Positions 3,773-60,118 of a stretch of 64,000 nucleotides of DNA are shown here, one piece after another. A program made the position numbers and the translations under genes. The stretch lies in the NCBI RefSeq assembly GCF_058153355.1, contig NZ_CM177019.1. One strand, written 5' to 3'. The notes under the pieces are model-generated. The model made no database searches, had not been told where the DNA came from, and saw nothing but the letters and a program-made list of their open reading frames with translations. Within the stretch, counting starts at the first letter, position 1, and each line of letters opens with the position of its first letter.

Positions 3773-5342
3773 TGTGTTTCTCCGAAACAGATGCGGTGCC
3801 TGAAGGCAAAAAATCATGCCAGGTGCTACGTTGTGCAGGCAGGTCGTGCGTCCCTGAGAGGACTATAGTGGAAGCGCCCGCCAGGATCCTGATGACAGGT
3901 TGTGGAATATGCGTTCCCATCGCCAGCATCATGACCAGCAGAATCACCATTGGCGAGGTGGTCAACCAGCCAAGTTCACCCCGGTTAACGGCCTGCGGCG
4001 GTTTCGCCATTAACACCCGCGCAGCCATCCGTACCAGGCCCGCCAGCACCAGCGTTAACAGCAATAACAGCAGGACGATAATCAACAGGTGATTACGAGC
4101 CAGTCCGGCGGTAACGGTCATAAATTCGCTAAGAAAAATGTTGAAGGGCGGCATCCCGGCCAGCGCCAGCGCACCGCCGCCAAACAGCACGGCGGTAAAT
4201 GGCATGATTTTGAGCATTCCGCAGACGACGTTGAGATCGCGCGTGCCGTACTTGAGCAGTACATTGCCGGAACCGCAGAACAGCAGCGTTTTTGCCAGAC
4301 TGTGGTTTAAGGTGTGCAGCAGCGCAGCAAAAATTCCCAGCGGCCCGCCAATGCCTAGCGCCACCGCGACCAGTCCCATGTTCTCCACGCTGGAGTACGC
4401 CAGCAGACGCTTAATGTCCCGCTGTACCAGAATGAAAAATGCCGCCACGGCAACCGACAACATGCCGAAGATGAGCAACAACCGGTTGGGGAAATCGCTG
4501 CCGATGGCCTGGCAAATAATGATGTAATAGCGAATCAGCACCAACAACGCGCAGTTCAGCAATACGGCGGAGAGCAGGGCGCTGACCGGACTCGGCGCTT
4601 CACTGTGAGCATCCGGCAGCCAGGCGTGCATGGGAAATAGCCCGGTTTTGGTGCCAAAGCCAATTAGCACAAACACAAAGGCCAACAGCATTAATGTTGG
4701 GTCAAGCAAGGACGATTGCTTAAGAACCTCGCTCCAGAATATCGCCATTTCTGCCTGCGGCATAACGCTGGCGGCGTTGGCGTATACCAGCACGGTACCG
4801 AACAGACCAAAAGCGACACCAACAGTACAAATAATGATGTACTTCCATGCAGCTTCCAGAGATGAACGCTGACCGTAAATGCCTACCAGAAACGCCGAGC
4901 TTAAGGTGGTGGCTTCGATTGCCGCCCACATCACAATCAGGTTATTGCTGGTAACAACCAGCAGCATGGTGAACAAAAACAGATGGAAGAAACCGTAGTA
5001 ATCGCACAGCGTAACGGGTGAAAGCTCGCCGTGAGCCACTTCATGACGCATGTAGCCAATCGAGTAAACACCGGTGAGAAAGCCAATCACACCAAGAATG
5101 GCGAGGAACAAACCGCCCAGACCATCAATATGAAGCCACAGTCCCGCAGCGAATATTTCTCCCGCATCAGCGGCAGTTTGGACCACCCACAGTGCCAGAA
5201 TCAGCAGCAGTGTGATCCCTAAGCTATGTAGTACTGTCACCGTGCGAGTCGCAGAGTGTTCCCGTTTCCGGCAGGCAAAACAGAGCAGCGAAAAAAGTAG
5301 CGGCGTGAGCAGGAGTAAAGCGAACATCACAGAATAACTCAT
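3762..5342 (-). CDS. hyfF: Hydrogenase-4 membrane subunit F (NuoL/M/N antiporter-like)
   Basis: 526-aa polytopic membrane ORF; operon position. Confidence 0.9.
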
Positions 5343-5346
5343 CTCA

Positions 5347-5997
5347 TTATCCCTTCAGCGCGGTCAAGTTGTTCACGTCCAGCGTGCCGTGGGTACGCCA
5401 TATTTTTCTTGCCAGTAACACCATCACAATGACGGCGAAGATGGCGTCGGTAGCGATACCAATTTCCACCAGTTCCGGTGCACGCCAGGCAAGAAGCGCC
5501 AGCACCAGATGGGAGCCGTTTTCCATCAGGCAGTAACCAAAAATTTGCCGCAGGATATTGCGCTGGCTGACAATGCACAGCAGGCCAAGTAGAAAATGAC
5601 CTAACGCCACCGCCAGCGCCGGTTTCAGCCCGGTAGCCATCGGTAGCTTCACGGGCTGAACGACAAATGCGCAAAGCAGGACAATTAATGCCGCGAGCAA
5701 TGCCATCATTGCCGGACCGAATAACGCTTTTTCCGGGAGGTTCTGGGGAATATTTCGTGCAGCGTAAATCATGATTAACGGTACCATCAGTACTTTGGTG
5801 ATAAAGGCGCTGGCGGACCAGATCAGCAGTTGCTCTGCGGCGAACAGGCACGAGAGGGTGGCGAAAATAGACACCAGCACCAGCGACTGGCAGGCGTAAA
5901 ATCCGCATGACAGGCGATAGCTTTTGACACTAATCACAAACAGCGATGTCAGCATCATCAGTCCCGCCAGATTATTTACGATCATAGAACCGGTCAT
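5347..5997 (-). CDS. hyfE: Hydrogenase-4 membrane subunit E
   Basis: 216-aa hydrophobic ORF; operon position. Confidence 0.85.
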
Positions 5998-47843: not shown

Positions 47844-49243
47844 ACACTCGCCAGCTACTGAGCGTCGGTATCGATATCGGCACTACCACCACCCAGGTGA
47901 TCTTCTCCCACCTGGAGCTGGTTAACCGTGCGGCGGTGTCGCAGGTGCCGCGCTACGAATTCATCAAACGCGAAATTAGCTGGCAAAGCCCGGTGTTCTT
48001 TACCCCTGTCGATAAACTGGGCGGTTTAAAAGAAGCGGAACTGAAAACCTTAATCCTCGAGCAATATCAGGCTGCGGGCATTGCGCCGGAAAGCGTTGAT
48101 TCTGGTGCCATCATCATCACCGGTGAAAGCGCGAAAACCCGCAATGCTCGCCCGGCGGTGATGACGCTCTCTCAGTCGCTGGGCGATTTTGTCGTTGCCA
48201 GCGCTGGGCCGCATCTCGAATCCGTGATCGCCGGTCACGGTGCTGGGGCGCAAACCCTTTCTGAACAACGGTTATGTCGGGTACTGAATATTGACATCGG
48301 CGGTGGCACCGCGAACTACGCTTTGTTCGATGCCGGAAAAATCAGCGGCACTGCCTGCCTTAACGTCGGCGGTCGCCTGCTGGAAACCGACAGCCAGGGG
48401 CGCGTGGTTTACGCTCATAAACCGGGGCAGATGATAGTGGATGAGTGCTTTGGTGCAGGCACTGACGCCCGTTCACTGACCGGCGCGCAGCTGGTGCAGG
48501 TTACCCGGCGGATGGCGGAACTGATTGTCGAAGTGATTGACGGAACGCTCTCGCCGCTCGCGCAGGCATTGATGCAAACCGGTTTGCTGCCCGCAGGTGT
48601 TACGCCCGAAATCATTACGCTTTCTGGCGGCGTGGGCGAATGTTATCGCCACCAGCCCGCTGACCCGTTCTGTTTTGCCGATATTGGCCCGCTTCTGGCA
48701 ACGGCGCTGCATGAGCATCCTCGTCTGCGTGAGATGAACGTGCAGTTTCCAGCGCAAACCGTGCGCGCCACGGTGATTGGCGCGGGCGCACATACTCTTT
48801 CGCTCTCTGGCAGCACAATCTGGCTGGAGGGGGTACAACTGCCGCTGCGCAATTTGCCGGTGGCGATCCCAATTGATGAAACGGATCTGGTGAGTGCCTG
48901 GCAACAGGCGCTGATTCAGCTGGATCTTGATCCCAAAACTGACGCGTACGTGCTGGCGCTTCCCGCCTCGCTGCCTGTGCGTTACGCCGCGGTACTGACG
49001 GTCATCAACGCGCTGGTCGATTTCGTCGCGCGTTTTCCGAATCCGCATCCCCTGCTGGTGGTGGCCGGGCAGGACTTTGGTAAAGCTCTGGGCATGTTGT
49101 TGCGCCCACAGCTACAACAACTCCCGTTGGCAGTCATTGACGAAGTGATTGTCCGCGCGGGGGACTATATCGACATTGGTACGCCTCTTTTTGGCGGATC
49201 GGTTGTGCCGGTGACGGTGAAATCACTCGCATTTCCTTCCTGA
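47840..49243 (+). CDS. eutA: Ethanolamine ammonia-lyase reactivase EutA
   Basis: 467-aa ORF; stop is 12 bp before eutB start. Confidence 0.9.
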   Translation: MNTRQLLSVGIDIGTTTTQVIFSHLELVNRAAVSQVPRYEFIKREISWQSPVFFTPVDKLGGLKEAELKTLILEQYQAAGIAPESVDSGAIIITGESAKTRNARPAVMTLSQSLGDFVVASAGPHLESVIAGHGAGAQTLSEQRLCRVLNIDIGGGTANYALFDAGKISGTACLNVGGRLLETDSQGRVVYAHKPGQMIVDECFGAGTDARSLTGAQLVQVTRRMAELIVEVIDGTLSPLAQALMQTGLLPAGVTPEIITLSGGVGECYRHQPADPFCFADIGPLLATALHEHPRLREMNVQFPAQTVRATVIGAGAHTLSLSGSTIWLEGVQLPLRNLPVAIPIDETDLVSAWQQALIQLDLDPKTDAYVLALPASLPVRYAAVLTVINALVDFVARFPNPHPLLVVAGQDFGKALGMLLRPQLQQLPLAVIDEVIVRAGDYIDIGTPLFGGSVVPVTVKSLAFPS

Positions 49244-49254
49244 GGGAACGACTT

Positions 49255-50616
49255 ATGAAACTAAAGACCACATTGTTCGGCAATGTATATCAGTTTAAGG
49301 ATGTAAAAGAGGTGCTGGCTAAAGCCAACGAACTTCGTTCGGGGGATGTGCTGGCGGGCGTTGCAGCGGCAAGCTCACAGGAGCGCGTGGCGGCAAAGCA
49401 GGTGTTGTCGGAAATGACTGTAGCGGATATCCGCAATAATCCGGTGATTGCCTATGAAGATGACTGCGTGACGCGACTGATTCAGGACGACGTTAACGAA
49501 ACGGCCTACAACCAGATTAAAAACTGGAGCATCAGCGAACTGCGTGAGTATGTGCTGAGTGATGAAACCAGCGTTGGCGACATTGCTTTTACCCGCAAAG
49601 GGCTGACCTCGGAAGTGGTCGCGGCGGTAGCGAAGATTTGCTCTAACGCGGACCTGATCTACGGCGCGAAGAAAATGCCGGTAATCAAAAAGGCCAATAC
49701 AACTATTGGTATTCCGGGCACCTTCAGCGCCCGTTTGCAGCCAAACGATACCCGCGACGACGTGCAAAGTATCGCCGCGCAAATCTACGAAGGGCTTTCT
49801 TTCGGGGTGGGCGATGCGGTGATCGGCGTTAACCCGGTGACTGACGACGTGGAAAACTTAAGCCGCGTGCTGGATACCATCTATGGCGTGATCGACAAAT
49901 TCAACATTCCGACCCAGGGCTGCGTGCTGGCGCACGTTACTACCCAGATTGAAGCGATCCGTCGCGGCGCGCCGGGCGGGCTGATTTTCCAGAGCATCTG
50001 CGGCAGCGAAAAAGGGCTGAAAGAGTTTGGCGTAGAGCTGGCGATGCTCGACGAAGCGCGCGCAGTGGGCGCGGAGTTCAACCGTATCGCCGGGGAAAAC
50101 TGCCTCTACTTCGAAACCGGGCAAGGCTCGGCGCTATCCGCTGGCGCTAACTTCGGCGCTGACCAGGTGACGATGGAAGCACGTAACTATGGGCTGGCGC
50201 GTCATTATGATCCGTTTATCGTCAACACCGTGGTCGGTTTTATTGGGCCGGAGTATCTCTACAACGACCGCCAGATTATCCGTGCTGGCTTAGAAGATCA
50301 CTTTATGGGCAAGCTGAGCGGCATCTCTATGGGCTGTGACTGCTGCTACACCAACCACGCTGACGCTGACCAGAACCTCAACGAAAACCTGATGATCCTG
50401 CTCGCCACCGCAGGCTGCAACTACATCATGGGGATGCCGCTGGGTGATGACATCATGCTCAACTACCAGACCACCGCATTCCACGATACCGCCACTGTGC
50501 GTCAGTTACTCAACCTGCGCCCGTCACCGGAGTTTGAACGCTGGCTGGAAAGCATGGGCATTATGGCAAACGGTCGCCTGACCAAACGGGCGGGCGATCC
50601 GTCACTGTTCTTCTGA
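49255..50616 (+). CDS. eutB: Ethanolamine ammonia-lyase large subunit EutB
   Basis: 453-aa ORF MKLKTTLFGNVYQFKDVKEVLAKANE... Confidence 0.92.
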   Translation: MKLKTTLFGNVYQFKDVKEVLAKANELRSGDVLAGVAAASSQERVAAKQVLSEMTVADIRNNPVIAYEDDCVTRLIQDDVNETAYNQIKNWSISELREYVLSDETSVGDIAFTRKGLTSEVVAAVAKICSNADLIYGAKKMPVIKKANTTIGIPGTFSARLQPNDTRDDVQSIAAQIYEGLSFGVGDAVIGVNPVTDDVENLSRVLDTIYGVIDKFNIPTQGCVLAHVTTQIEAIRRGAPGGLIFQSICGSEKGLKEFGVELAMLDEARAVGAEFNRIAGENCLYFETGQGSALSAGANFGADQVTMEARNYGLARHYDPFIVNTVVGFIGPEYLYNDRQIIRAGLEDHFMGKLSGISMGCDCCYTNHADADQNLNENLMILLATAGCNYIMGMPLGDDIMLNYQTTAFHDTATVRQLLNLRPSPEFERWLESMGIMANGRLTKRAGDPSLFF

Positions 50617-50636
50617 TGACGCGGAGATAACACATC

Positions 50637-51524
50637 ATGGATCAAAAACAGATTGAAGAAATTGTACGCAGCGTGATGGCGTCAATGGGACAAGCGGCCC
50701 CCGCGCCGTCAGAAGCAAAATGCGCCACTACCACCTGTGCAGCACCGGTGACCTCGGAAAGCTGCGCGCTGGATTTAGGTTCCGCGGAAGCAAAAGCGTG
50801 GATTGGCATTGAAAACCCGCATCGCGCAGACGTATTAACAGAACTGCGCCGCAGCACCGTGGCTCGCGTCTGTACCGGTCGTGCTGGTCCGCGTCCGCGT
50901 ACCCAGGCGTTGTTGCGTTTCCTGGCCGATCACTCTCGTTCGAAAGACACCGTACTGAAAGAAGTGCCGGAAGAGTGGGTGAAAGCGCAGGGCTTGCTGG
51001 AGGTCCGCTCTGAAATTAGCGACAAAAATCTCTATCTGACTCGCCCGGATATGGGCCGCCGCTTGTGTGCAGAGGCTGTTGAAGCGCTGAAAGCGCAGTG
51101 TGTTGCTAATCCGGACGTACAGGTGGTTATTTCCGATGGTCTATCTACTGATGCGATCACCGTGAACTATGAAGAGATTCTGCCACCGCTGATGGCGGGC
51201 CTGAAACAGGCCGGGTTGAAAGTCGGCACACCGTTCTTTGTGCGTTACGGTCGCGTGAAGATTGAAGATCAGATTGGCGAACTTCTTGGCGCGAAAGTGG
51301 TGATCCTGCTGGTGGGTGAACGTCCGGGGTTGGGGCAGTCAGAAAGTCTCTCCTGCTACGCCGTTTACTCGCCGCGTATGGTAACCACCGTTGAGGCCGA
51401 TCGCACCTGTATCTCTAACATTCACCAGGGCGGCACGCCGCCGGTTGAAGCCGCAGCCGTCATTGTGGATTTGGCGAAACGTATGCTGGAGCAGAAAGCA
51501 TCCGGCATCAACATGACCCGATAA
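50637..51524 (+). CDS. eutC: Ethanolamine ammonia-lyase small subunit EutC
   Basis: 295-aa ORF. Confidence 0.92.
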
Positions 51525-51533
51525 GGAGGCATC

Positions 51534-52193
51534 ATGCCAGCTTTAGATTTGATTCGACCGTCGGTAACCGCCATGCGGGTGATAGCCTCTGTTAACGCCG
51601 AATTTGCGCGTGAACTGAAATTGCCGCCGCATATTCGTAGCCTCGGGCTGATTTCTGCTGATTCCGATGACGTCACCTACATTGCGGCTGACGAAGCGAC
51701 CAAGCAGGCGATGGTTGAAGTCGTGTATGGTCGCTCGCTGTATGCGGGAGCTGCACACGGGCCGTCACCGACTGCCGGTGAAGTGCTGATTATGCTCGGG
51801 GGGCCAAACCCGGCGGAAGTGCGTGCCGGTCTGGATGCGATGGTTGCGCATATTGAAAATGGCGCTGCTTTCCAGTGGGCTAATGATGCAGAAAACACAG
51901 CCTTCCTGGCGCATGTCGTTTCGCGTACCGGCTCTTATCTCTCATCAACCGCCGGGATCACGCTTGGCGATCCGCTGGCGTATCTGGTGGCACCGCCGCT
52001 GGAAGCGACTTACGGCATTGATGCAGCGTTGAAATCTGCCGACGTGCAACTGGTGACCTATGTACCGCCACCGTCTGAAACCAACTACTCGGCAGCATTT
52101 TTAACCGGTAGCCAGGCCGCGTGTAAAGCAGCCTGTAACGCCTTTACCGATGCAGTGCTGGAAATCGCGCGTAATCCAATCCAGCGTGCGTAA
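51534..52193 (+). CDS. eutL: Ethanolamine microcompartment shell protein EutL (tandem BMC)
   Basis: 219-aa ORF. Confidence 0.9.
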
Positions 52194-52205
52194 CGGAGGT
52201 TGCCG

Positions 52206-52706
52206 ATGATCAATGCACTGGGATTGCTGGAAGTGGACGGCATGGTCGCCGCGATAGATGCAGCTGATGCCATGCTCAAAGCAGCTAACGTTCGTCTGCT
52301 CAGTCACGAAGTGCTTGACCCTGGTCGCCTAACGCTGGTGGTGGAAGGCGATCTGGCGGCGTGTCGTGCGGCGCTGGACGCAGGTTGTGCTGCCGCGATG
52401 CGTACCGGGCGTGTCATCAGCCGTAAGGAGATCGGTCGGCCAGACGATGACACCCAGTGGCTGGTTACTGGCTTTAACCGCCAGCCGAAGCAACCCGTAA
52501 AGGAACCCGACGCGCCAGTTATCGTCGCGGAATCTGCTGACGAGTTGTTGGCGCTGTTAACATCAGTACGTCAGGGAATGACGGCAGGAGAAGTGGCTGC
52601 CCACTTTGGCTGGCCGCTGGAAAAAGCCAGAAATGCGCTCGAACAGCTCTTTTCTGCCGGGACGTTACGTAAACGCAGTAGTCGTTATCGTCTCAAGCCC
52701 CATTAA
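52206..52706 (+). CDS. eutK: Ethanolamine microcompartment shell protein EutK
   Basis: BMC domain plus C-terminal helix-turn-helix-like tail; start may be 2 codons upstream (52200). Confidence 0.88.
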   Translation: MINALGLLEVDGMVAAIDAADAMLKAANVRLLSHEVLDPGRLTLVVEGDLAACRAALDAGCAAAMRTGRVISRKEIGRPDDDTQWLVTGFNRQPKQPVKEPDAPVIVAESADELLALLTSVRQGMTAGEVAAHFGWPLEKARNALEQLFSAGTLRKRSSRYRLKPH

Positions 52707-52751
52707 CCTGTCGGAGGTGCCGGGTGTCCTACAACACCCGGCATTAACATC

Positions 52752-53804
52752 ATGAAAAAGACCCGTACAGCTAATTTGCACCATCTTTATCATGAACCCT
52801 TACCCGAAAACCTGAAGCTAACGCCGAAGGTCGAAGTGGATAATGTTCATCAACGGCAAACAACGGATGTCTATGAACATGCTTTGACGATTACCGCCTG
52901 GCAGCAGATTTACGATCAGCTGCATCCGGGCAAATTTCATGGTGAATTTACGGAAATTCTGCTCGATGATATTCAGGTTTTCCGTGAATACACGGGGCTG
53001 GCGCTGCGTCAGTCGTGCCTGGTCTGGCCGAATTCGTTCTGGTTTGGCATTCCGGCGACGCGCGGTGAGCAGGGATTTATCGGTTCGCAATGTCTGGGAA
53101 GCGCAGAAATAGCGACGCGCCCTGGTGGAACCGAGTTTGAATTAAGTACGCCGGACGATTACACGATCCTTGGCGTGGTGCTTTCTGAAGATGTCATCAC
53201 CCGGCAGGCTAACTTTTTGCATAACCCGGAAAGGGTGCTGCATATGTTACGTAACCAGTCGGCGCTGGAAGTGAAAGAGCAGCATAAAGCCGCGCTGTGG
53301 GGCTTTGTCCAACAGGCTCTGGCGACATTTTGCGAGAACCCGGAAAATCTCCATCAGCCTGCAGTGCGAAAAGTGCTGGGGGATAATTTGCTAATGGCGA
53401 TGGGGGCGATGCTGGAAGAAGCGCAGCCAATGGTGACGGTGGAAAGCATCAGTCATCAGAGTTACCGTCGGTTGCTTTCCCGCGCCCGTGAATATGTGCT
53501 GGAAAACATGTCCGAACCGGTGACGGTGCTGGACTTGTGTAATCAACTGCACGTCAGTCGCCGCACCTTGCAAAACGCATTTCACGCTATTTTGGGCATT
53601 GGCCCGAATGCGTGGCTGAAACGCATTCGCCTGAACGCCGTGCGCCGTGAACTGATTAGCCCGTGGTCGCAAAGTATGACGGTAAAAGACGCCGCCATGC
53701 AGTGGGGATTCTGGCATCTTGGGCAGTTTGCCACGGATTATCAGCAATTGTTTGCAGAAAAGCCTTCACTGACGCTGCATCAGCGGATGCAGGAACTGGA
53801 GTGA
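52752..53804 (+). CDS. eutR: AraC-family transcriptional activator EutR
   Basis: 350-aa ORF with C-terminal AraC helix-turn-helix. Confidence 0.9.
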
Positions 53805-53880
53805 GGGTGAGGGCCGGATGAGGATGGTGTTTGATCCGGTCCATAGTGAAGTTACAAATTACGTTGAATTGCTATGTATT

Positions 53881-54198
53881 TTATTGCCCAACGGGATAGG
53901 CGATAAACAAACCGACAATTGTCAAAATACACGCCAGCAGGAATACCAACATACAATTTACGCGCTTTCGCGAAATTTTAAATAAATAGCAAAATAGTGT
54001 TGTTACCACGATCACTACCGGGATAGTCATAAAATTAATAACGATGAGTGCTATCAATCCAAAACTTGCTCCTCCACCGTGGGGAATAAAAATGTGTTCT
54101 TCAAAATAAACTTCTATAGCAAATGCCAGCACACATCCCAGAAAACTCATATCCAGATGAGGGTGCCATTTACTTTCTTTATGTGATGTGTCTGACAT
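53881..54198 (-). CDS. Small hydrophobic membrane protein (accessory islet gene 2)
   Basis: 105-aa ORF with about 3 predicted TM segments; locally very AT-rich; 40 bp downstream of the 54239-55501 gene on the same strand. Confidence 0.55.
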   Translation of the reverse strand: MSDTSHKESKWHPHLDMSFLGCVLAFAIEVYFEEHIFIPHGGGASFGLIALIVINFMTIPVVIVVTTLFCYLFKISRKRVNCMLVFLLACILTIVGLFIAYPVGQ

Positions 54199-54238
54199 TC
54201 TTAAATGCTCCCGTGAGCAAACTGGCGCAAAATAATTT

Positions 54239-55501
54239 CTAAGATTGCTGATAAGACGTCGCTGTTGTCCGGCACTCCGGGCAGATAAACGCGTAAATTA
54301 TCCCTTCGCCGTATTGTTCAATATCGGCATAATCCAGTTGCGCAAGAAACATCATTGTGTGGGAACATTGCGGACAGAGAGGATATTCCGCGTCCTGAAT
54401 CCAGGTTGGATGCCCGCCAAGTTGCGAGAAAGAGACAGGTAAAAATGGGTCTGCGGCAAATAACGGTGACCTAAGGTTTCCCTGTCTCATGCTGTTTACA
54501 GGGAGTCGACGCCATTCCGATACATCATCCGGCAGCCAGGCAGGCGGGATATTTTTTGCAGACAAATGAGCGTTACCCTTTGAGTCCATGTAGCCGAAAA
54601 TGGTGCTGTAGGCGGTGCAACATTCGCAAGTCACGACGCGAAAACTGCCGTTATCGCTAAGACCCGTTGCCTTCAGGTCAACGTCGAAAAGATTTGTTAG
54701 TGGCAATGCGCAATTTGGACAGGTATCGTTGCGTTCATCAACAACACGCAAAGCTTCGCAAGACCCGGTGCTTTTCATCTCCAGATGAAAACATTGAGGA
54801 AAATAGAGATTACGCCTTTGATCTTCAGCGGTTAACTCCCAACCGGCCTCATGCGCATATTCTTCAGGCTCGATGTAAAGGGAGCTGCGCCACGGCGGTG
54901 GGCTATTGCGCCAGTGGGCAAAACGTTCAACGACAACGTCATCCCCAATCCATGCCAGACATTGCAGAATACAATTTCTGTTTTCTGCATCATCCTCAAC
55001 CCGTTCTAACAGCCTGTCGCGTACATCTGTGGGGGCGCGGTGGAAAGGCATATAAGAATCATTGTCCAAATCATCGTAAGAGATCCATTCTCTGAAATAG
55101 GCATTCAGATTCGCCTGGGTAAATGCCGCCAGACAAAGGCAAATCTCCTGAGCGAGCTTATATTCACCAGATGCAAAGCGTTCTGTGGCGTAATCAGCCA
55201 TCAGCTGCGCTTGATCGGTGGTCAGTTGTTGATACAGGGCATCTGTGGGAACGGGGCAGGGAGTCCAGTCGATTAACGCATCGAATTTCCGCGGTTGGTG
55301 AATTAATTTCAGCATGACAACCGGATCGCTTAACCCTGCAAACGCATTCACGATCTTTTTGTTTTTCTTGATATATTCGTCGTGCTCACGTTGCTGTTGG
55401 GCCTGCTCGCAGGGCATGCAGTATCCGTTAGTACGCGCTGCGGTTTCCGGAAGAATGGTTGATATACAAGCGGGGCTTTTACAGGGAATACGGTGAGTCA
55501 T
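54239..55501 (-). CDS. Hypothetical protein with N- and C-terminal CxxC zinc-ribbon motifs; C-terminus resembles DUF1963/YwqG family
   Basis: 420-aa ORF with GGAG Shine-Dalgarno 8 nt upstream; motifs CKSPAC...CMPC and LCPQCSHTMMFLAQLDY...FICPECR; C-terminal GGHPTWIQD...P.C..C...M.F.AQL recalled as a DUF1963 signature. Not in the K-12 eutR-hemF interval as I recall it. Confidence 0.6.
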   Translation of the reverse strand: MTHRIPCKSPACISTILPETAARTNGYCMPCEQAQQQREHDEYIKKNKKIVNAFAGLSDPVVMLKLIHQPRKFDALIDWTPCPVPTDALYQQLTTDQAQLMADYATERFASGEYKLAQEICLCLAAFTQANLNAYFREWISYDDLDNDSYMPFHRAPTDVRDRLLERVEDDAENRNCILQCLAWIGDDVVVERFAHWRNSPPPWRSSLYIEPEEYAHEAGWELTAEDQRRNLYFPQCFHLEMKSTGSCEALRVVDERNDTCPNCALPLTNLFDVDLKATGLSDNGSFRVVTCECCTAYSTIFGYMDSKGNAHLSAKNIPPAWLPDDVSEWRRLPVNSMRQGNLRSPLFAADPFLPVSFSQLGGHPTWIQDAEYPLCPQCSHTMMFLAQLDYADIEQYGEGIIYAFICPECRTTATSYQQS

Positions 55502-55639
55502 AGAGGCGCTCCTTGCCTGAGGATATTAAGTCGAAAGAGATTATTATTAGATATTAGGGTGTCACTATGGCACACAAATTAAAACAGCATTAATTTTATG
55601 CCACCAACCGAGGGTTATTTTTCTTTTATTTTCATGATA

Positions 55640-56542
<903 letters not shown>

Positions 56543-57412
56543 TTACCGCTTTCTCGAGTGTGCTTTCTGGTTGTCAAACCAGTGAAAATAACTGATCACG
56601 CCTTCGGCAATCGCTGTGGCGATTTTCTGGCGAAATGCCGCCGTGCCTAACAGCCGCTCTTCTTCCGGGTTGGTGATAAATGAGGTTTCCACCAGCACCG
56701 AAGGAACCGACGGCGATTTCAACACCACAAACGCGGCTTGTTCGGTGTTGCGGCTGTGCAGTTTATGCACCGGCTTAATCTTCTTCAGAATATGCGAGCC
56801 GAGCGTCAGGCTGTTTTTAATAGTATCGGTTTGCACCAGATCAAACAGCACTTGCTGCAATAGGTGATCCTTGTCAGTCGCCTTTTTACCGGCAACTTCA
56901 TCGGCGCGGTTTTCGCGTTCAGACAGGTATTTCGCCATTGCGCTACTTGCCCCACGGTTAGAGAGAGCAAATACCGAAGCACCGGCAGCTTTCGGGTTGG
57001 TAAAGCCATCGGCATGAATTGACATAAACAGATCTGCGCCATGTTTATGGGCGATTTCAACGCGATCGTACAGCGGGATAAACGTATCGCCAGAACGCGT
57101 TAAACGCGCATCAATGCCATGATTACGCAAAATGGAACGGACGTTTTTGGCAATCGCCAGCACCACATGTTTTTCTTTCGATCCATTGCGACCAATCGCT
57201 CCGGTATCAATTCCGCCGTGGCCTGGATCGAGAACAACGACACGTTTGCCGCCGCTTTTTTTGGCTTTCGGCTTACTGTGTCCGTTACTGGTTTTTAAAG
57301 GTTCTTCTTTGGCGATGGCTTGCGACATTCCTGACAACGTCAGGGCAGCCAATCCGGCTTTCAGCACCTGGCGGCGCGAAGTGAGTGTTTTTAGTGGTTT
57401 AAAAGTGCTCAT
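56543..57412 (-). CDS. amiA: N-acetylmuramoyl-L-alanine amidase AmiA
   Basis: 289-aa ORF with Tat-type signal (SRRQVLKAGLAALTL); directly upstream of hemF. Confidence 0.92.
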   Translation of the reverse strand: MSTFKPLKTLTSRRQVLKAGLAALTLSGMSQAIAKEEPLKTSNGHSKPKAKKSGGKRVVVLDPGHGGIDTGAIGRNGSKEKHVVLAIAKNVRSILRNHGIDARLTRSGDTFIPLYDRVEIAHKHGADLFMSIHADGFTNPKAAGASVFALSNRGASSAMAKYLSERENRADEVAGKKATDKDHLLQQVLFDLVQTDTIKNSLTLGSHILKKIKPVHKLHSRNTEQAAFVVLKSPSVPSVLVETSFITNPEEERLLGTAAFRQKIATAIAEGVISYFHWFDNQKAHSRKR

Positions 57413-57625
57413 ACGGCCTGAGTTGTAATAATAAAGTTCCAGATGTTATATCGTATCGCGTAATCCGTTACGACCGTTTGCTGTTGAGAATTGTTTTACT
57501 TTTCATTTCAATAGTTGACAACTCCCCATTATGCCACTTTTTCAACCGATTTTCGTCAGATATTGGCTAATTCGACCGTTCACGCCATAATCAGCCTTTT
57601 AACCCGCAAAAAGGTAACGAATACC

Positions 57626-58051
57626 ATGGAGATACGCGTATTTCGCCAGGAAGATTTCGAAGAGGTCATCACCCTTTGGGAGCGTTGCGACTTGCTGCGT
57701 CCGTGGAACGATCCGGAAATGGACATCGAGCGCAAAATGAACCATGACGTCAGTCTGTTTCTGGTCGCTGAGGTAAACGGTGAAGTGGTCGGAACGGTGA
57801 TGGGCGGTTATGACGGGCATCGCGGGTCTGCTTATTATCTTGGCGTGCATCCAGAGTTTCGTGGGCGTGGGATTGCTAATGCGTTGCTTAATCGGCTGGA
57901 GAAAAAGCTGATTGCTCGCGGCTGCCCGAAAATTCAGATCAATGTGCCGGAAGATAACGACATGGTGCTCGGAATGTATGAACGCCTTGGATATGAACAC
58001 GCCGACGTGCTGAGTCTGGGCAAGCGTTTGATTGAAGATGAAGAGTACTGA
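57626..58051 (+). CDS. ypeA: GNAT acetyltransferase YpeA
   Basis: [29 protein letters not shown]..., 141 aa. Confidence 0.88.
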
Positions 58052-58487
58052 GTTTCATCCTGCCCATTATGATGCGCACGGACGCCTGCGTTTACCTTTT
58101 CTCTTCTGGCTTGTGCTGTTGCTTCAGGCGCGAACCTGGGTGCTGTTTGTCATTGCCGGTGCGTCGCGCGAGCAGGGTACTGCGCTGCTAAATCTGTTTT
58201 ATCCCGATCACGATAATTTCTGGCTGGGGTTGATTCCCGGTATTCCGGCGGTGCTGGCGTTTTTGCTGAGTGGTCGGCGGGCTTCATTTCCCCGTATCTG
58301 GCATGTGCTCTATTTTCTGTTGCTGTTGGCGCAGGTGGTTTTACTTTGCTGGCAACCGTGGCTGTGGCTGAACGGTGAATCCGTTAGCGGTATCGGTCTG
58401 GCGCTGGTAGTGGCGGATATTGTGGCGTTAATCTGGCTGCTGACCAATCGACGTTTACGCGCTTGTTTTAATGAAGAAAAAGAATAA
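58038..58487 (+). CDS. yfeZ: Inner-membrane protein YfeZ
   Basis: ~149-aa hydrophobic ORF overlapping the ypeA 3' end. Confidence 0.85.
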
Positions 58488-58547
58488 CGGCACTTTTTGG
58501 TGAATTTGCACTCCAAGCAACGTTATTGAATAACCAAAGGAAGTGAC

Positions 58548-59123
58548 ATGAAATCGCTGCGTTTAATGTTATGCGCTATGCCGTTGATGCTGACCGGCTG
58601 TTCAACGATGTCGTCAGTTAACTGGTCTGCCGCTAATCCGTGGAACTGGTTTGGGTCGTCCACCAAAGTGAGCGAGCAGGGCGTGGGTGAATTAACGGCG
58701 TCCACACCACTGCAAGAACAAGCTATTGCCGATGCGCTTGATGGTGATTATCGCCTGCGCAGCGGAATGAAAACCGCGAACGGCAACGTGGTGCGCTTTT
58801 TTGAATTGATGAAAGGCGACAACGTGGCGATGGTAATTAACGGCGATCAGGGCACGATCAGCCGCATTGATGTGCTGGATAGCGATATTCCTGCTGACAC
58901 CGGTGTTAAAATCGGTACACCGTTTAGCGACCTTTACAGCAAAGCATTTGGCAATTGCCAAAAAGCTGATGGTGATGATAATCGTGCCGTCGAATGTAAA
59001 GCTGAAGGCAGTCAACATATTAGCTACCAGTTCAGCGGGGAATGGAGTGGTCCTGAAGGGTTAATGCCTTCGGACGATACCTTGAAAAACTGGAAAGTCA
59101 GTAAAATTATCTGGCGGCGTTAA
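58548..59123 (+). CDS. yfeY: Lipoprotein YfeY
   Basis: 191-aa ORF with lipoprotein signal MKSLRLMLCAMPLMLTGC. Confidence 0.88.
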   Translation: MKSLRLMLCAMPLMLTGCSTMSSVNWSAANPWNWFGSSTKVSEQGVGELTASTPLQEQAIADALDGDYRLRSGMKTANGNVVRFFELMKGDNVAMVINGDQGTISRIDVLDSDIPADTGVKIGTPFSDLYSKAFGNCQKADGDDNRAVECKAEGSQHISYQFSGEWSGPEGLMPSDDTLKNWKVSKIIWRR

Positions 59124-59134
59124 TTTGCGTCTGA

Positions 59135-60118
<984 letters not shown>

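What the first reader, a model, noticed from the sequence alone, without database searches (positions are those of the whole stretch)
54239..55501. 420-aa protein with zinc-ribbon motifs at both termini and a DUF1963/YwqG-like C-terminal domain
Seen in sequence: N-terminal CKSPAC...CMPC and C-terminal LCPQCSHTMMFLAQLDY...FICPECR motifs; the C-terminal GGHPTWIQD block resembles the DUF1963 signature as I remember it. The central region has no motif I recognise. It is followed by a small polytopic membrane protein, a pairing compatible with an effector plus membrane partner or immunity protein.
Basis: partly seen in the sequence, partly recalled or inferred. Interest (0 to 1): 0.5.

Follow-up and report, generated by a model that had tools for sequence, protein, structure and literature searches.

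The report
Three-zinc bacterial PDCD2/YwqG-like binding protein
This rare E. coli gene encodes a zinc-stabilised protein-binding protein from the same fold family as the eukaryotic ribosomal-protein chaperone PDCD2/Tsr4; it is not a toxin, its function is untested, and its small membrane-protein neighbour occurs only in enterobacteria.

Summary

**What it is.**
- The TYPP domain covers residues ~212-420, not just the last 60. Each repeat carries its own zinc ribbon.
- The architecture fits "prokaryotic family 2" of the TYPP superfamily, described computationally in 2014. RefSeq already labels the gene "DUF1963 domain-containing".

**What it is not.** No toxin, enzyme, secretion or defence signature was found.

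**The membrane partner.** The downstream protein is YpfK (PF26378). It is confined to Enterobacteriaceae and absent from all 76 non-enterobacterial homologue loci fetched and from two enterobacterial ones.

**Distribution.** The two-gene cassette sits between hemF and eutR in only 25 of 5,426 complete E. coli genomes.

**Most likely function.** A non-enzymatic binder or chaperone of an unknown client.

**New lead.** In 17-20 Bacillales-dominated loci the gene lies in arrays with SUKH, SuFu, ankyrin and YwqG genes, which resemble polyimmunity loci.

Verdict: new member of a known kind, modest interest.

The parts
54239..55501 (-). CDS of the 420-aa TYPP family-2-like protein (about 47.9 kDa, pI 4.9, 20 Cys, no signal peptide)
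   Evidence: ORF listing; full-length homologues; AF2 model with pLDDT 94.3 and pTM 0.88; RefSeq annotation 'DUF1963 domain-containing protein' WP_032303504.1; composition
55509..55514 (-). Shine-Dalgarno sequence AAGGAG, 7 nt before the ATG
   Evidence: Read directly from the sequence
55403..55489 (-). N-terminal C4 zinc finger (residues ~5-33; C7, C12, C28, C31), running into a long helix
   Evidence: All four Cys are invariant in 45 sequences. AF2 gives short strands followed by helix 29-47. No DksA/TraR Pfam match in 40 members; only weak zf-A20 and zf-CGNR matches.
54869..55402 (-). Alpha-helical HEAT/ARM-like solenoid (residues ~34-211), including the conserved NRNxxLxALAWIGDxxVV repeat-like motif
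54467..54868 (-). TYPP repeat 1 (residues ~212-345), with a degenerate GGxP (AGWE 219-222) and an inserted Cys4 zinc ribbon
54617..54721 (-).
   Evidence: All four Cys invariant; aligns in register with the C-terminal CxxC pair
54242..54466 (-). TYPP repeat 2 (residues ~346-420), carrying SQLGGHPTWIQD, the FLAQ glutamine Q388, the zinc ribbon and the conserved tail TTATxYQQS
   Evidence: Pfam DUF1963 match to residues 359-406; hhalign to canonical YwqG, 94% probability, E 1.4e-7; invariant S359, G362, G363, P365, W367, Y373, M383, Q388 and G400
54272..54376 (-). C-terminal zinc ribbon C376/C379/C407/C410
53881..54198 (-). ypfK: 105-aa small membrane protein with 3-4 predicted TM helices, 40 bp downstream on the same strand
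   Evidence: ORF; 50-65% identical to the Salmonella and Klebsiella 109-aa proteins; precomputed Pfam PF26378 YpfK on its 98%-identical cluster and on orthologues; hydropathy
53805..55639 (.). Two-gene cassette between the converging stop codons of eutR (ends 53804) and hemF (ends 55640). It is absent from K-12, where those stops are 5 bp apart.
   Evidence: Only 25 of 5,426 complete E. coli genomes cover at least 80% of the query spanning the cassette.

Best explanation
**What it is.** The gene encodes a soluble, acidic, cytoplasmic protein built from three protein-interaction modules held together by three structural zinc sites:
- an N-terminal C4 zinc finger;
- a HEAT-like alpha-solenoid;
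- a complete two-repeat TYPP (TSR4/YwqG/PDCD2L/PDCD2) beta-domain, in which each repeat carries its own Cys4 ribbon.

It best fits the computationally defined 'prokaryotic family 2' of the TYPP superfamily.

**How it most likely works.** It has no catalytic signature and most likely acts as a non-enzymatic binder. The TYPP cleft and pocket (invariant GGHP-x-W and Q388) would grip an extended or disordered segment of a client protein, as PDCD2/Tsr4 does with ribosomal protein uS5. The HEAT surface would add a second contact.

**The client.** It is unknown. My preferred guess is a foreign or toxic protein, which would make this a stand-alone, immunity-type neutraliser. The reason is that in a subset of Bacillales the gene sits inside arrays of SUKH, SuFu, ankyrin and YwqG genes.

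**YpfK.** It is an enterobacterium-specific neighbour, not an obligate partner.

**Shown:** the anatomy, the fold, the conservation, the distribution and the gene contexts.

**Inferred:** zinc binding, peptide binding, absence of enzymatic activity, and the immunity-type role.
For: Fold:
- AF2 model with pLDDT 94.3.

Sequence:
- Pfam DUF1963 at 25.1 bits, above the cutoff of 23.
- hhalign to canonical YwqG proteins gives 94% probability, E 1.4e-7, with GGxP, FLAQ and G-x-hydrophobic-F in register.
- The internal duplication aligns with the CxxC pairs in register, E 1.4e-4.
- 30 invariant residues, including 11 Cys, G362, G363, P365 and Q388.

Literature:
- TYPP is defined by two repeats with GGxP, a conserved Q and sporadic CxxC pairs. 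[quoted passage not shown]
- The GGxP and CxxC residues of PDCD2 are needed to bind uS5 co-translationally. Those authors expect bacterial TYPP proteins to have other clients (PMC7736825).

No enzyme, toxin or defence model matches.

Context:
- 17 of 87 loci carry at least one clustered SUKH, SUFU, ankyrin or YwqG neighbour. 20 of 87 carry any of the seven recurrent neighbour clusters.
- These arrays run on the same strand with short gaps.
- A further 9 SUKH-1 proteins plus DMP19-like proteins occur in those loci.
- No toxin family appears among the 25 families that one search lists for those loci, i.e. those matched by two or more ORFs.
- One protein is a fusion of SUKH-like DUF2625 to the full-length family-2 protein.
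- These features match the published criteria for heterogeneous polyimmunity loci, and HEAT and ankyrin repeats are listed there as immunity-protein types (PMC3482391).
- The distribution is patchy, with presence/absence polymorphism within E. coli (25 of 5,426 genomes) and one pseudogenised copy.
Against: - No binding partner is shown.
- The immunity-like context is limited to about one fifth of loci, all but one from related Bacillales genera, so shared ancestry could inflate it. About 65 loci, including the E. coli window, show unrelated housekeeping neighbours.
- No toxin gene lies next to the E. coli, Salmonella or Klebsiella copies.
- Immunity proteins usually diverge fast. This family is unusually conserved (35-60% identity across phyla), which fits a conserved housekeeping client better.
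- The family is not on plasmids or phages and matches no PADLOC model.
- Assignment to 'family 2' could not be checked against the paper's member list because the supplement was cut when stored.
- The N-terminal finger does not match the DksA/TraR Pfam model.
Confidence: 0.5

Rival explanations
1. It is a dedicated chaperone or assembly factor for a conserved housekeeping client. Like PDCD2/Tsr4 with uS5, it would bind a nascent or aggregation-prone cellular protein and escort it to its complex.
For: - The only experimentally characterised TYPP proteins are dedicated chaperones (PMC7736825; predicted in PMC4275035).
- The sequence is very strongly conserved along its full length across phyla, with 30 invariant residues, which suggests a conserved client.
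- The gene is chromosomal, not on plasmids or phages.
- Most loci have ordinary housekeeping neighbours.
Against: - A housekeeping chaperone should not be missing from 99.5% of E. coli genomes, nor be pseudogenised in a close relative.
- No client gene is conserved next to it in any lineage.
- The uS5 N-terminal extension bound by Tsr4 is specific to eukaryotes (PMC7736825).
Confidence: 0.25
2. In enterobacteria it forms a lineage-specific two-component module with YpfK. The soluble TYPP protein would dock on, chaperone or regulate the small inner-membrane protein, or the reverse.
For: - Every YpfK locus examined has the TYPP gene adjacent and co-directional, in Escherichia, Kluyvera, Klebsiella and Salmonella.
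- Adjacency survives a gene-order swap in Salmonella.
- The intergenic gap in the window is 40 bp, which is compatible with co-transcription.
Against: - YpfK is absent from all 76 non-enterobacterial loci and from Superficieibacter and Enterobacteriaceae UBA3516, which keep the TYPP gene next to hemF.
- The adjacency could be simple inherited synteny within one family.
- In L089 the TYPP gene is broken while ypfK is intact.
- No interaction has been tested. The structure tool returns no interface scores, so I did not attempt a co-fold.
Confidence: 0.15
3. This is the first reader's reading: a toxin or effector encoded with a membrane immunity or export partner.
For: - The arrangement is a two-gene cassette with a small membrane protein downstream.
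- It is present or absent between strains.
- GC content dips to 48% across the cassette.
Against: - No toxin, nuclease, peptidase, ART, deaminase or pore-forming domain, and no PADLOC hit.
- There is no signal peptide or secretion-targeting domain. Three cytoplasmic-type zinc sites are present.
- The fold is a binding/chaperone fold.
- The partner is missing from nearly all homologues.
- In Bacillales the gene keeps company with immunity-type genes, not toxins.
Confidence: 0.04
4. It is an enzyme or a transcription factor. Either it modifies peptides using the Q388 pocket (the 'radical' alternative raised in the 2014 paper), or it binds RNA polymerase through a DksA/TraR-type zinc finger.
For: - Burroughs & Aravind raise a catalytic role as a possibility, and they describe DksA/TraR-type fingers on some family-2 proteins.
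- Q388, S359 and Y373 are invariant.
Against: - The same authors consider catalysis unlikely because only one conserved polar residue is available.
- None of 40 N-termini matches the DksA/TraR Pfam model, even at E<=10.
- The DksA coiled coil that enters the RNA polymerase secondary channel is absent; residues 1-47 form only a finger plus one helix.
- Many relatives lack the finger entirely, with profile matches starting at positions 29-90.
Confidence: 0.06

Closest known systems
TYPP superfamily, 'prokaryotic family 2' (Burroughs & Aravind 2014, PMC4275035)
   Same: - The architecture matches the description: a TYPP domain preceded by an uncharacterised alpha-helical domain, and in some members by an N-terminal C4 zinc finger.
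- Both TYPP repeats carry paired CxxC motifs, together with GGxP and the conserved Q of the second repeat.
- The distribution is narrow and patchy among bacteria.
   Different: - I could not confirm membership from the paper's list.
- The finger here does not match the DksA/TraR model the paper names.
- The paper does not mention the SUKH, SuFu or ankyrin neighbourhoods, YpfK, or the HEAT-like nature of the helical domain.
B. subtilis YwqG (PDB 1PV5) and the canonical YwqG/DUF1963 family
   Same: - The GGxP, FLAQ and G-x-hydrophobic-F motifs are shared.
- Canonical YwqG genes lie in the same Bacillales arrays.
   Different: - Sequence identity is only 12%.
- The Pfam DUF1963 model covers 51 of its 216 positions here, against 216 of 216 at E 1e-50 for the canonical neighbours.
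- Canonical YwqG (about 260 aa) has no zinc ribbons, no HEAT domain and no N-terminal finger.
Eukaryotic PDCD2 / PDCD2L / Tsr4 (dedicated chaperones of ribosomal protein uS5)
   Same: - The domain superfamily is the same, with two repeats carrying GGxP, CxxC-like motifs and Q.
- An extra zinc module is present (MYND in PDCD2, ribbons and a finger here).
- Binding through the TYPP domain has been shown experimentally for PDCD2 (PMC7736825).
   Different: - The uS5 segment recognised is specific to eukaryotes, so the client must differ.
- No Pfam PDCD2_C match was found here.
- The gene is dispensable and rare in E. coli, whereas PDCD2 is essential.
Immunity proteins of polymorphic toxin systems in heterogeneous polyimmunity loci (SUKH, SuFu, Imm-ank, HEAT; Zhang et al. 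2011/2012)
   Same: - In 17-20 loci the gene lies in same-strand, short-gap arrays of unrelated predicted immunity genes, with no toxin family among the 25 that one search lists.
- One protein is a fusion to a SUKH-like domain.
- The protein is built of repeat and binding modules.
   Different: - Neither TYPP nor DUF1963 is listed as an immunity family in those papers (the search terms are absent).
- No cognate toxin is known.
- The E. coli locus has no such context.
- Sequence conservation is far higher than is typical for immunity proteins.

Membership tests
TYPP superfamily (TSR4/YwqG/PDCD2L/PDCD2) | Two stacked beta-sheet repeats with the fold of 1PV5 | tested here: met
   [not shown]
TYPP superfamily (TSR4/YwqG/PDCD2L/PDCD2) | GGxP motif | tested here: met
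   GGHP at residues 362-365, with G362, G363 and P365 invariant in 45 sequences. It aligns with the GGxP of canonical YwqG. Repeat 1 has only a degenerate AGWE (219-222).
TYPP superfamily (TSR4/YwqG/PDCD2L/PDCD2) | Highly conserved glutamine, with the pocket residue coming from the second repeat | tested here: met
   Q388 in FLAQ is invariant and aligns with the FLAQ of canonical YwqG.
TYPP superfamily (TSR4/YwqG/PDCD2L/PDCD2) | Internal duplication, with paired CxxC motifs in a subset of members | tested here: met
   hhalign of residues 212-345 against 346-420 gives E 1.4e-4 with the CxxC...CxxC pairs in register. Seven of the eight Cys (all but C410) are invariant.
Pfam DUF1963 (PF09234) | Whole-protein score at or above the gathering cutoff of 23 bits | tested here: met
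   25.1 bits, E 2.7e-5, but the match covers only profile positions 1-51 of 216. Many orthologues fall below the cutoff or carry no precomputed hit.
Canonical YwqG family (sensu Burroughs & Aravind family 1) | Full-length match to the DUF1963/YwqG profile in a stand-alone domain of about 260 aa | tested here: not met
   Only 51 of 216 profile positions match, whereas neighbouring canonical YwqG proteins match 1-216 at E 1e-50. A profile search of the PDB does not reach 1PV5. The NCBI name 'YwqG family protein' on the E. albertii orthologue is therefore loose.
TYPP prokaryotic family 2 | N-terminal uncharacterised alpha-helical domain fused to TYPP | tested here: met
   [not shown]
TYPP prokaryotic family 2 | [quoted passage not shown] | tested here: inconclusive
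   A C4 finger is present and invariant. None of 40 N-termini hits the DksA/TraR Pfam model at E<=10; the only matches are weak ones to zf-A20 and zf-CGNR.
TYPP prokaryotic family 2 | Listed among the family's members in the paper's supplement | not testable with these tools
   The stored supplement is cut before the TYPP lists. The identity of the Salmonella seed gi 555248518 could not be checked.
Polymorphic-toxin immunity protein / polyimmunity locus member | Tandem, same-orientation, short-gap arrays of diverse immunity genes without interspersed toxins | tested here: inconclusive
   The criterion is met in 17-20 of 87 loci: Sporosarcina, Lysinibacillus, Solibacillus, some Paenibacillus and one Shewanella. 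It is not met in the window or in the other ~65 loci.
Polymorphic-toxin immunity protein / polyimmunity locus member | Adjacent cognate toxin, or demonstrated neutralisation of a toxin | tested here: not met
   No toxin domain was found next to the gene in the window or in enterobacterial loci. There is only a weak WXG100-like 435-aa protein 4.3 kb away in one Paenibacillus locus. Neutralisation cannot be tested here.
Toxin/effector or known anti-phage defence protein | Recognisable toxin or enzymatic domain, secretion signal, or a match to a defence-system model | tested here: not met
   Pfam, NCBIfam and PADLOC give no such match. The N-terminus is a zinc finger, not a signal peptide.
YpfK (PF26378), for the downstream 105-aa protein | Match to the PF26378 model | tested here: inconclusive
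   The local Pfam copy lacks the model; orthologues labelled PF26378 also get no hit. Precomputed annotation assigns PF26378 to the 98%-identical cluster and to 17 other clusters. Direct identity to the Salmonella and Klebsiella proteins is 50-65%.

The most novel reading that the evidence does not exclude
TYPP family-2 proteins, and perhaps canonical YwqG proteins too, would be a previously unlisted class of immunity or anti-effector proteins. They would neutralise incoming polymorphic toxins by clamping a disordered toxin segment in the same pocket that PDCD2 uses for uS5. The rare E. coli/Salmonella copy would then be an orphan immunity gene, possibly working with YpfK at the inner membrane. 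This would tie the eukaryotic PDCD2/Tsr4 ribosomal chaperones to an origin in bacterial conflict systems, as was proposed earlier for SUKH and SuFu.
Probability: 0.2. Interest if true: 0.6.

Novelty: new member of a known kind. Interest (0 to 1): 0.3.

Why it matters
On its own this is a correctly annotated "DUF1963 domain-containing" conserved hypothetical protein, so the finding is mostly ordinary.

Three points give it some value:
- It shows that the short Pfam hit understates the domain. The protein holds a full TYPP fold plus three zinc sites and a HEAT-like solenoid.
- It is a tractable bacterial relative of PDCD2/Tsr4, an essential and disease-linked eukaryotic chaperone. It occurs in Salmonella and in a few E. 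coli strains, where its client could be found by simple pull-downs.
- The recurring company of SUKH, SuFu, ankyrin and YwqG genes in Bacillales gives a testable hypothesis. Bacterial TYPP proteins may be toxin-neutralising binders, a role the literature I searched does not assign to this superfamily.

Tried and rejected
**Searches that found nothing useful**
- Foldseek against the PDB: best E 0.05, TM about 0.06, antibody Fabs.
- afdb50 fold library: not available on the machine.
- Single-sequence and profile searches of PDB sequences: no YwqG match.
- NCBIfam and PADLOC: no family.
- Consensus promoter and terminator scans of 53700-55750: zero sites.
- Literature searches for 'YpfK' and for my guessed Salmonella locus tags STM2452/STM2453: only irrelevant papers.
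- The supplement of PMC4275035 is cut before the TYPP member lists.
- tblastn against plasmids and phages: one partial 62-residue match on a Gemmatirosa megaplasmid and no phage match.
- DksA/TraR test of the N-terminal finger: negative.
- Alternative N-terminal extensions in relatives of 500-627 aa have no Pfam domains. Only the 667-aa P0104 has one, DUF2625.

**Considered and rejected**
- A functional link to hemF, which is co-directional and 138 bp upstream. hemF is not a neighbour outside enterobacteria.
- Recent horizontal insertion as the explanation for rarity in E. coli. The same site is occupied in E. albertii, Klebsiella, Kluyvera, Superficieibacter and Salmonella. Alleles within E. 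coli differ by up to 4%. Ancestral presence followed by loss in most E. coli is more likely.

**Not attempted**
- A co-fold with YpfK, because the structure tool returns no interface metrics.
Full report
**Observation.** The window carries an ATG-initiated 420-codon ORF at 54239..55501 on the minus strand. A 105-codon hydrophobic ORF follows 40 bp downstream at 53881..54198 on the same strand. The large ORF has a strong Shine-Dalgarno sequence, AAGGAG, 7 nt before the ATG. In an alignment of 45 full-length homologues from several phyla, 30 positions are invariant:
- C7, C12, C28 and C31;
- C261, C264, C292 and C295;
- C376, C379 and C407 (C410 is mostly kept);
- S359, G362, G363, P365, W367, Y373, M383, Q388 and G400.

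The protein therefore has three Cys4 clusters, not two. The ORF is certainly a gene. The word-indexed search found 147 near-full-length relatives at 37-100% identity. The exhaustive profile search found 2,795 cluster representatives at E<=1e-3, 537 of them at E<=1e-30.

**Genomic setting.**
- The flanks are eutB-eutC-eutL-eutK-eutR on one side and hemF-amiA, ypeA, yfeZ, yfeY and yfeX on the other, so this is an Escherichia chromosome.
- In K-12 the converging stop codons of hemF and eutR are 5 bp apart. Here 1.8 kb holding the two genes lies between them.
- Only 25 of 5,426 complete E. coli genomes cover at least 80% of the 2-kb query. In those genomes RefSeq annotates "DUF1963 domain-containing protein" and "hypothetical protein".
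- The same site next to hemF is occupied in E. albertii, Klebsiella, Kluyvera, Superficieibacter, an uncultured enterobacterium and Salmonella. E. coli alleles differ by up to about 4%. I read this as an ancestral enterobacterial gene lost from most E. coli, not a recent insertion (inference).
- One Escherichia contig has the gene broken into 128-aa and 289-aa ORFs.
- The family is essentially absent from 72,556 plasmids and 50,697 phage records.

**Anatomy.** AlphaFold2 on the 45-sequence alignment gives a confident model, with mean pLDDT 94.3 and pTM 0.88. It has three modules:
- short strands around the first Cys4 cluster, running into a helix (residues 29-47);
- an all-helical region extending to about residue 219;
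- a beta-rich region from 221 to 418.

**Why Pfam sees so little of the domain.**
- Pfam DUF1963 matches only residues 359-406, to profile positions 1-51 of 216, at 25.1 bits against a cutoff of 23.
- The explanation is an internal duplication. Residues 212-345 and 346-420 align to each other at hhalign E 1.4e-4, with their CxxC...CxxC pairs in register.
- The second repeat of this protein resembles the first repeat of canonical YwqG proteins. hhalign gives 94% probability, E 1.4e-7, with GGxP, FLAQ and G-x-hydrophobic-F aligned.

**What is known about the fold.**
- Burroughs and Aravind (2014, PMC4275035) unified DUF1963/YwqG with eukaryotic TSR4, PDCD2 and PDCD2L as the TYPP superfamily.
- They define it as two strand-swapped five-stranded repeats, each with a GGxP motif and a conserved Q, with paired CxxC motifs in a subset of members.
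- They describe a "family two" whose members are mostly fused to an uncharacterised N-terminal alpha-helical domain, several also carrying a C4 zinc finger they assign to the DksA/TraR type.
- They argue for a chaperone-like protein-binding role, with catalysis as an unlikely alternative.
- Later experiments showed that PDCD2/Tsr4 is a dedicated, co-translational chaperone of ribosomal protein uS5. Mutating the GGxP or CxxC residues of either repeat abolishes binding. Those authors expect bacterial TYPP proteins to have different clients (PMC7736825).

**How this protein compares.** It meets every defining feature of TYPP that I could test, and its architecture matches family two. Two caveats apply. 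The paper's member list was not available, because the supplement was cut when stored. The N-terminal finger does not hit the DksA/TraR Pfam model in any of 40 members; only weak generic zinc-finger matches appear. It is not a member of the canonical YwqG family in the strict sense. Canonical proteins match the DUF1963 profile end to end at E 1e-50, while this one matches a quarter of it.

**The membrane partner.**
- The 105-aa protein has three hydrophobic segments, giving 3-4 predicted TM helices.
- It is 50-65% identical to 109-aa proteins next to the Salmonella and Klebsiella orthologues. Precomputed annotation assigns these to Pfam PF26378 (YpfK). The local Pfam copy lacks that model.
- The YpfK family is tiny: 19 clusters, all from Enterobacteriaceae.
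- Every YpfK locus I examined has the TYPP gene adjacent. In Salmonella the order is reversed, hemF-ypfK-TYPP.
- The converse does not hold. tblastn finds no YpfK in any of the 76 non-enterobacterial loci, nor in Superficieibacter or the UBA3516 enterobacterium, which keep the TYPP gene next to hemF.
A lineage-specific link in enterobacteria remains open.

**Neighbourhoods elsewhere.** I fetched 80 loci from GTDB species representatives. They come from Enterobacteriaceae, Chitinimonas, Shewanella, Steroidobacter, Planctomycetota, Verrucomicrobiota, Clostridium, Paenibacillus, Lysinibacillus, Sporosarcina, Solibacillus and others. I called ORFs in all of them and clustered the products.
- No neighbour is conserved family-wide. 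A Pfam scan of all neighbours within two genes in the 76 non-enterobacterial loci shows mostly unrelated housekeeping families.
- In 17 of 87 loci the gene has at least one clustered neighbour from SUKH-1+TPR, SUFU, ankyrin+DUF4274 or canonical YwqG/DUF1963. In 20 of 87 it has any of seven recurrent clusters, which add DUF6138 and two unannotated families of about 224 and 130 aa that sit immediately upstream.
- These genes form same-strand runs with gaps of 0-130 bp, and the composition differs from locus to locus.
- The remaining genes of those 20 loci include nine more SUKH-1 proteins and DMP19-like proteins. No toxin family appears among the 25 families that one search lists, i.e. those matched by two or more ORFs.
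- One metagenomic protein fuses SUKH-like DUF2625 to a full-length family-2 protein.
- These features correspond to the published description of heterogeneous polyimmunity loci, and HEAT and ankyrin repeats are listed there as immunity-protein types (PMC3482391; PMC3113570).
- Neither of those papers nor the 2014 TYPP paper links DUF1963, YwqG or TYPP to immunity.

The caveat is serious. These loci come from a few related Bacillales genera plus one Shewanella, so shared ancestry may account for much of the recurrence. The E. coli locus shows nothing of the kind.

**Mechanism.** What is shown:
- a cytoplasmic protein with no signal peptide, pI 4.9 and 20 cysteines, including the three Cys4 clusters (11 of those 12 positions invariant);
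- three binding-type modules;
- no catalytic, toxin, secretion or defence signature.

What I infer:
- The three clusters bind structural zinc.
- The TYPP cleft and pocket, around GGHP-x-W and Q388, grip an extended peptide of a client, by analogy with PDCD2-uS5.
- The HEAT solenoid supplies a second surface.

For the client I weigh two readings. The Bacillales contexts, the fusion, the patchy distribution and the within-species presence/absence favour a toxin-neutralising, immunity-type binder. The exceptional sequence conservation (35-60% identity across phyla) and the chromosomal, non-mobile setting favour a conserved cellular client. My confidences are about 0.9 that this is a TYPP-fold, family-2-like protein, about 0.6 that it is a non-enzymatic binder, and about 0.3 that its client is a toxin or other foreign protein.

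**Novelty and verdict.** The gene is already annotated as DUF1963-containing, and the family's architecture has been described computationally. This is a new member of a known kind with unknown function, not a new system. Its effector-plus-partner interpretation is not supported. The only lead beyond the literature is the polyimmunity-like company the gene keeps in some Bacillales. That lead is worth a proper controlled census and a pull-down experiment, but it does not by itself raise the finding above modest interest.

Noticed in passing
L089:2698-3960 (Escherichia contig SRR11949193_26): The TYPP gene is split into two ORFs (128 aa and 289 aa) while the adjacent ypfK is intact, so the gene is decaying in this strain. 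This contig, like the Kluyvera and Klebsiella ones, has hemF-TYPP-ypfK-maeB with no eut operon in between.
   Followed up: partly
L020, L022, L023, L029, L034, L036, L039, L043, L045, L046, L049, L064 (about 5,300-5,980 in most); L025, L032, L034, L043, L048, L049, L064 (about 5,560-5,970): Two unannotated protein families sit immediately upstream of the TYPP gene on the same strand, usually with gaps of about 0-65 bp. One is acidic and about 224 aa (12 loci); the other is about 130 aa (7 loci). Neither has a Pfam match. DUF6138 (about 555 aa) recurs in 10 of these loci, mostly just downstream.
   Followed up: partly
L002:11621-13239 (Paenibacillus contig): A 435-aa protein with a weak WXG100-like N-terminus (E 0.001, below the cutoff) is followed by a 96-aa ORF, 4.3 kb downstream of the TYPP gene. 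This may be an LXG-type toxin/immunity pair.
   Followed up: partly
P0104 (667 aa; locus L085, Paenibacillus MAG): DUF2625, which itself weakly matches SUKH models, is fused to a full-length family-2 TYPP protein. It resembles the 'polyimmunity proteins' described in the literature, but it could also be a gene-calling merger in a MAG.
   Followed up: partly
L005:137-1872 (Salmonella Paratyphi A contig): Gene order is hemF-ypfK-TYPP in Salmonella but hemF-TYPP-ypfK in Escherichia, Klebsiella and Kluyvera. The pair stays adjacent and co-directional despite the swap.
   Followed up: partly
window 48000-60000: The flanks (eutB to eutR, and hemF to yfeY) are only 95.5-96.1% identical to K-12 over 3-4 kb on each side, so the host belongs to a divergent E. 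coli lineage. GC content dips to 48% over 54-56 kb, against 51-57% in the flanks.
   Followed up: partly
window 53881-54198; L005:137-463; L006:6365-6691: The Pfam copy used by the scanning tool does not contain PF26378 (YpfK), while the precomputed annotations do. A 'no Pfam hit' result for this small protein is a library-version artefact.
   Followed up: yes
L080 (Shewanella electrica), whole locus: The TYPP gene is flanked on both sides by long runs of small genes (80-350 aa) on the opposite strand, including a canonical YwqG. This array-like organisation lies outside the Bacillales, and I did not annotate it further.
   Followed up: no
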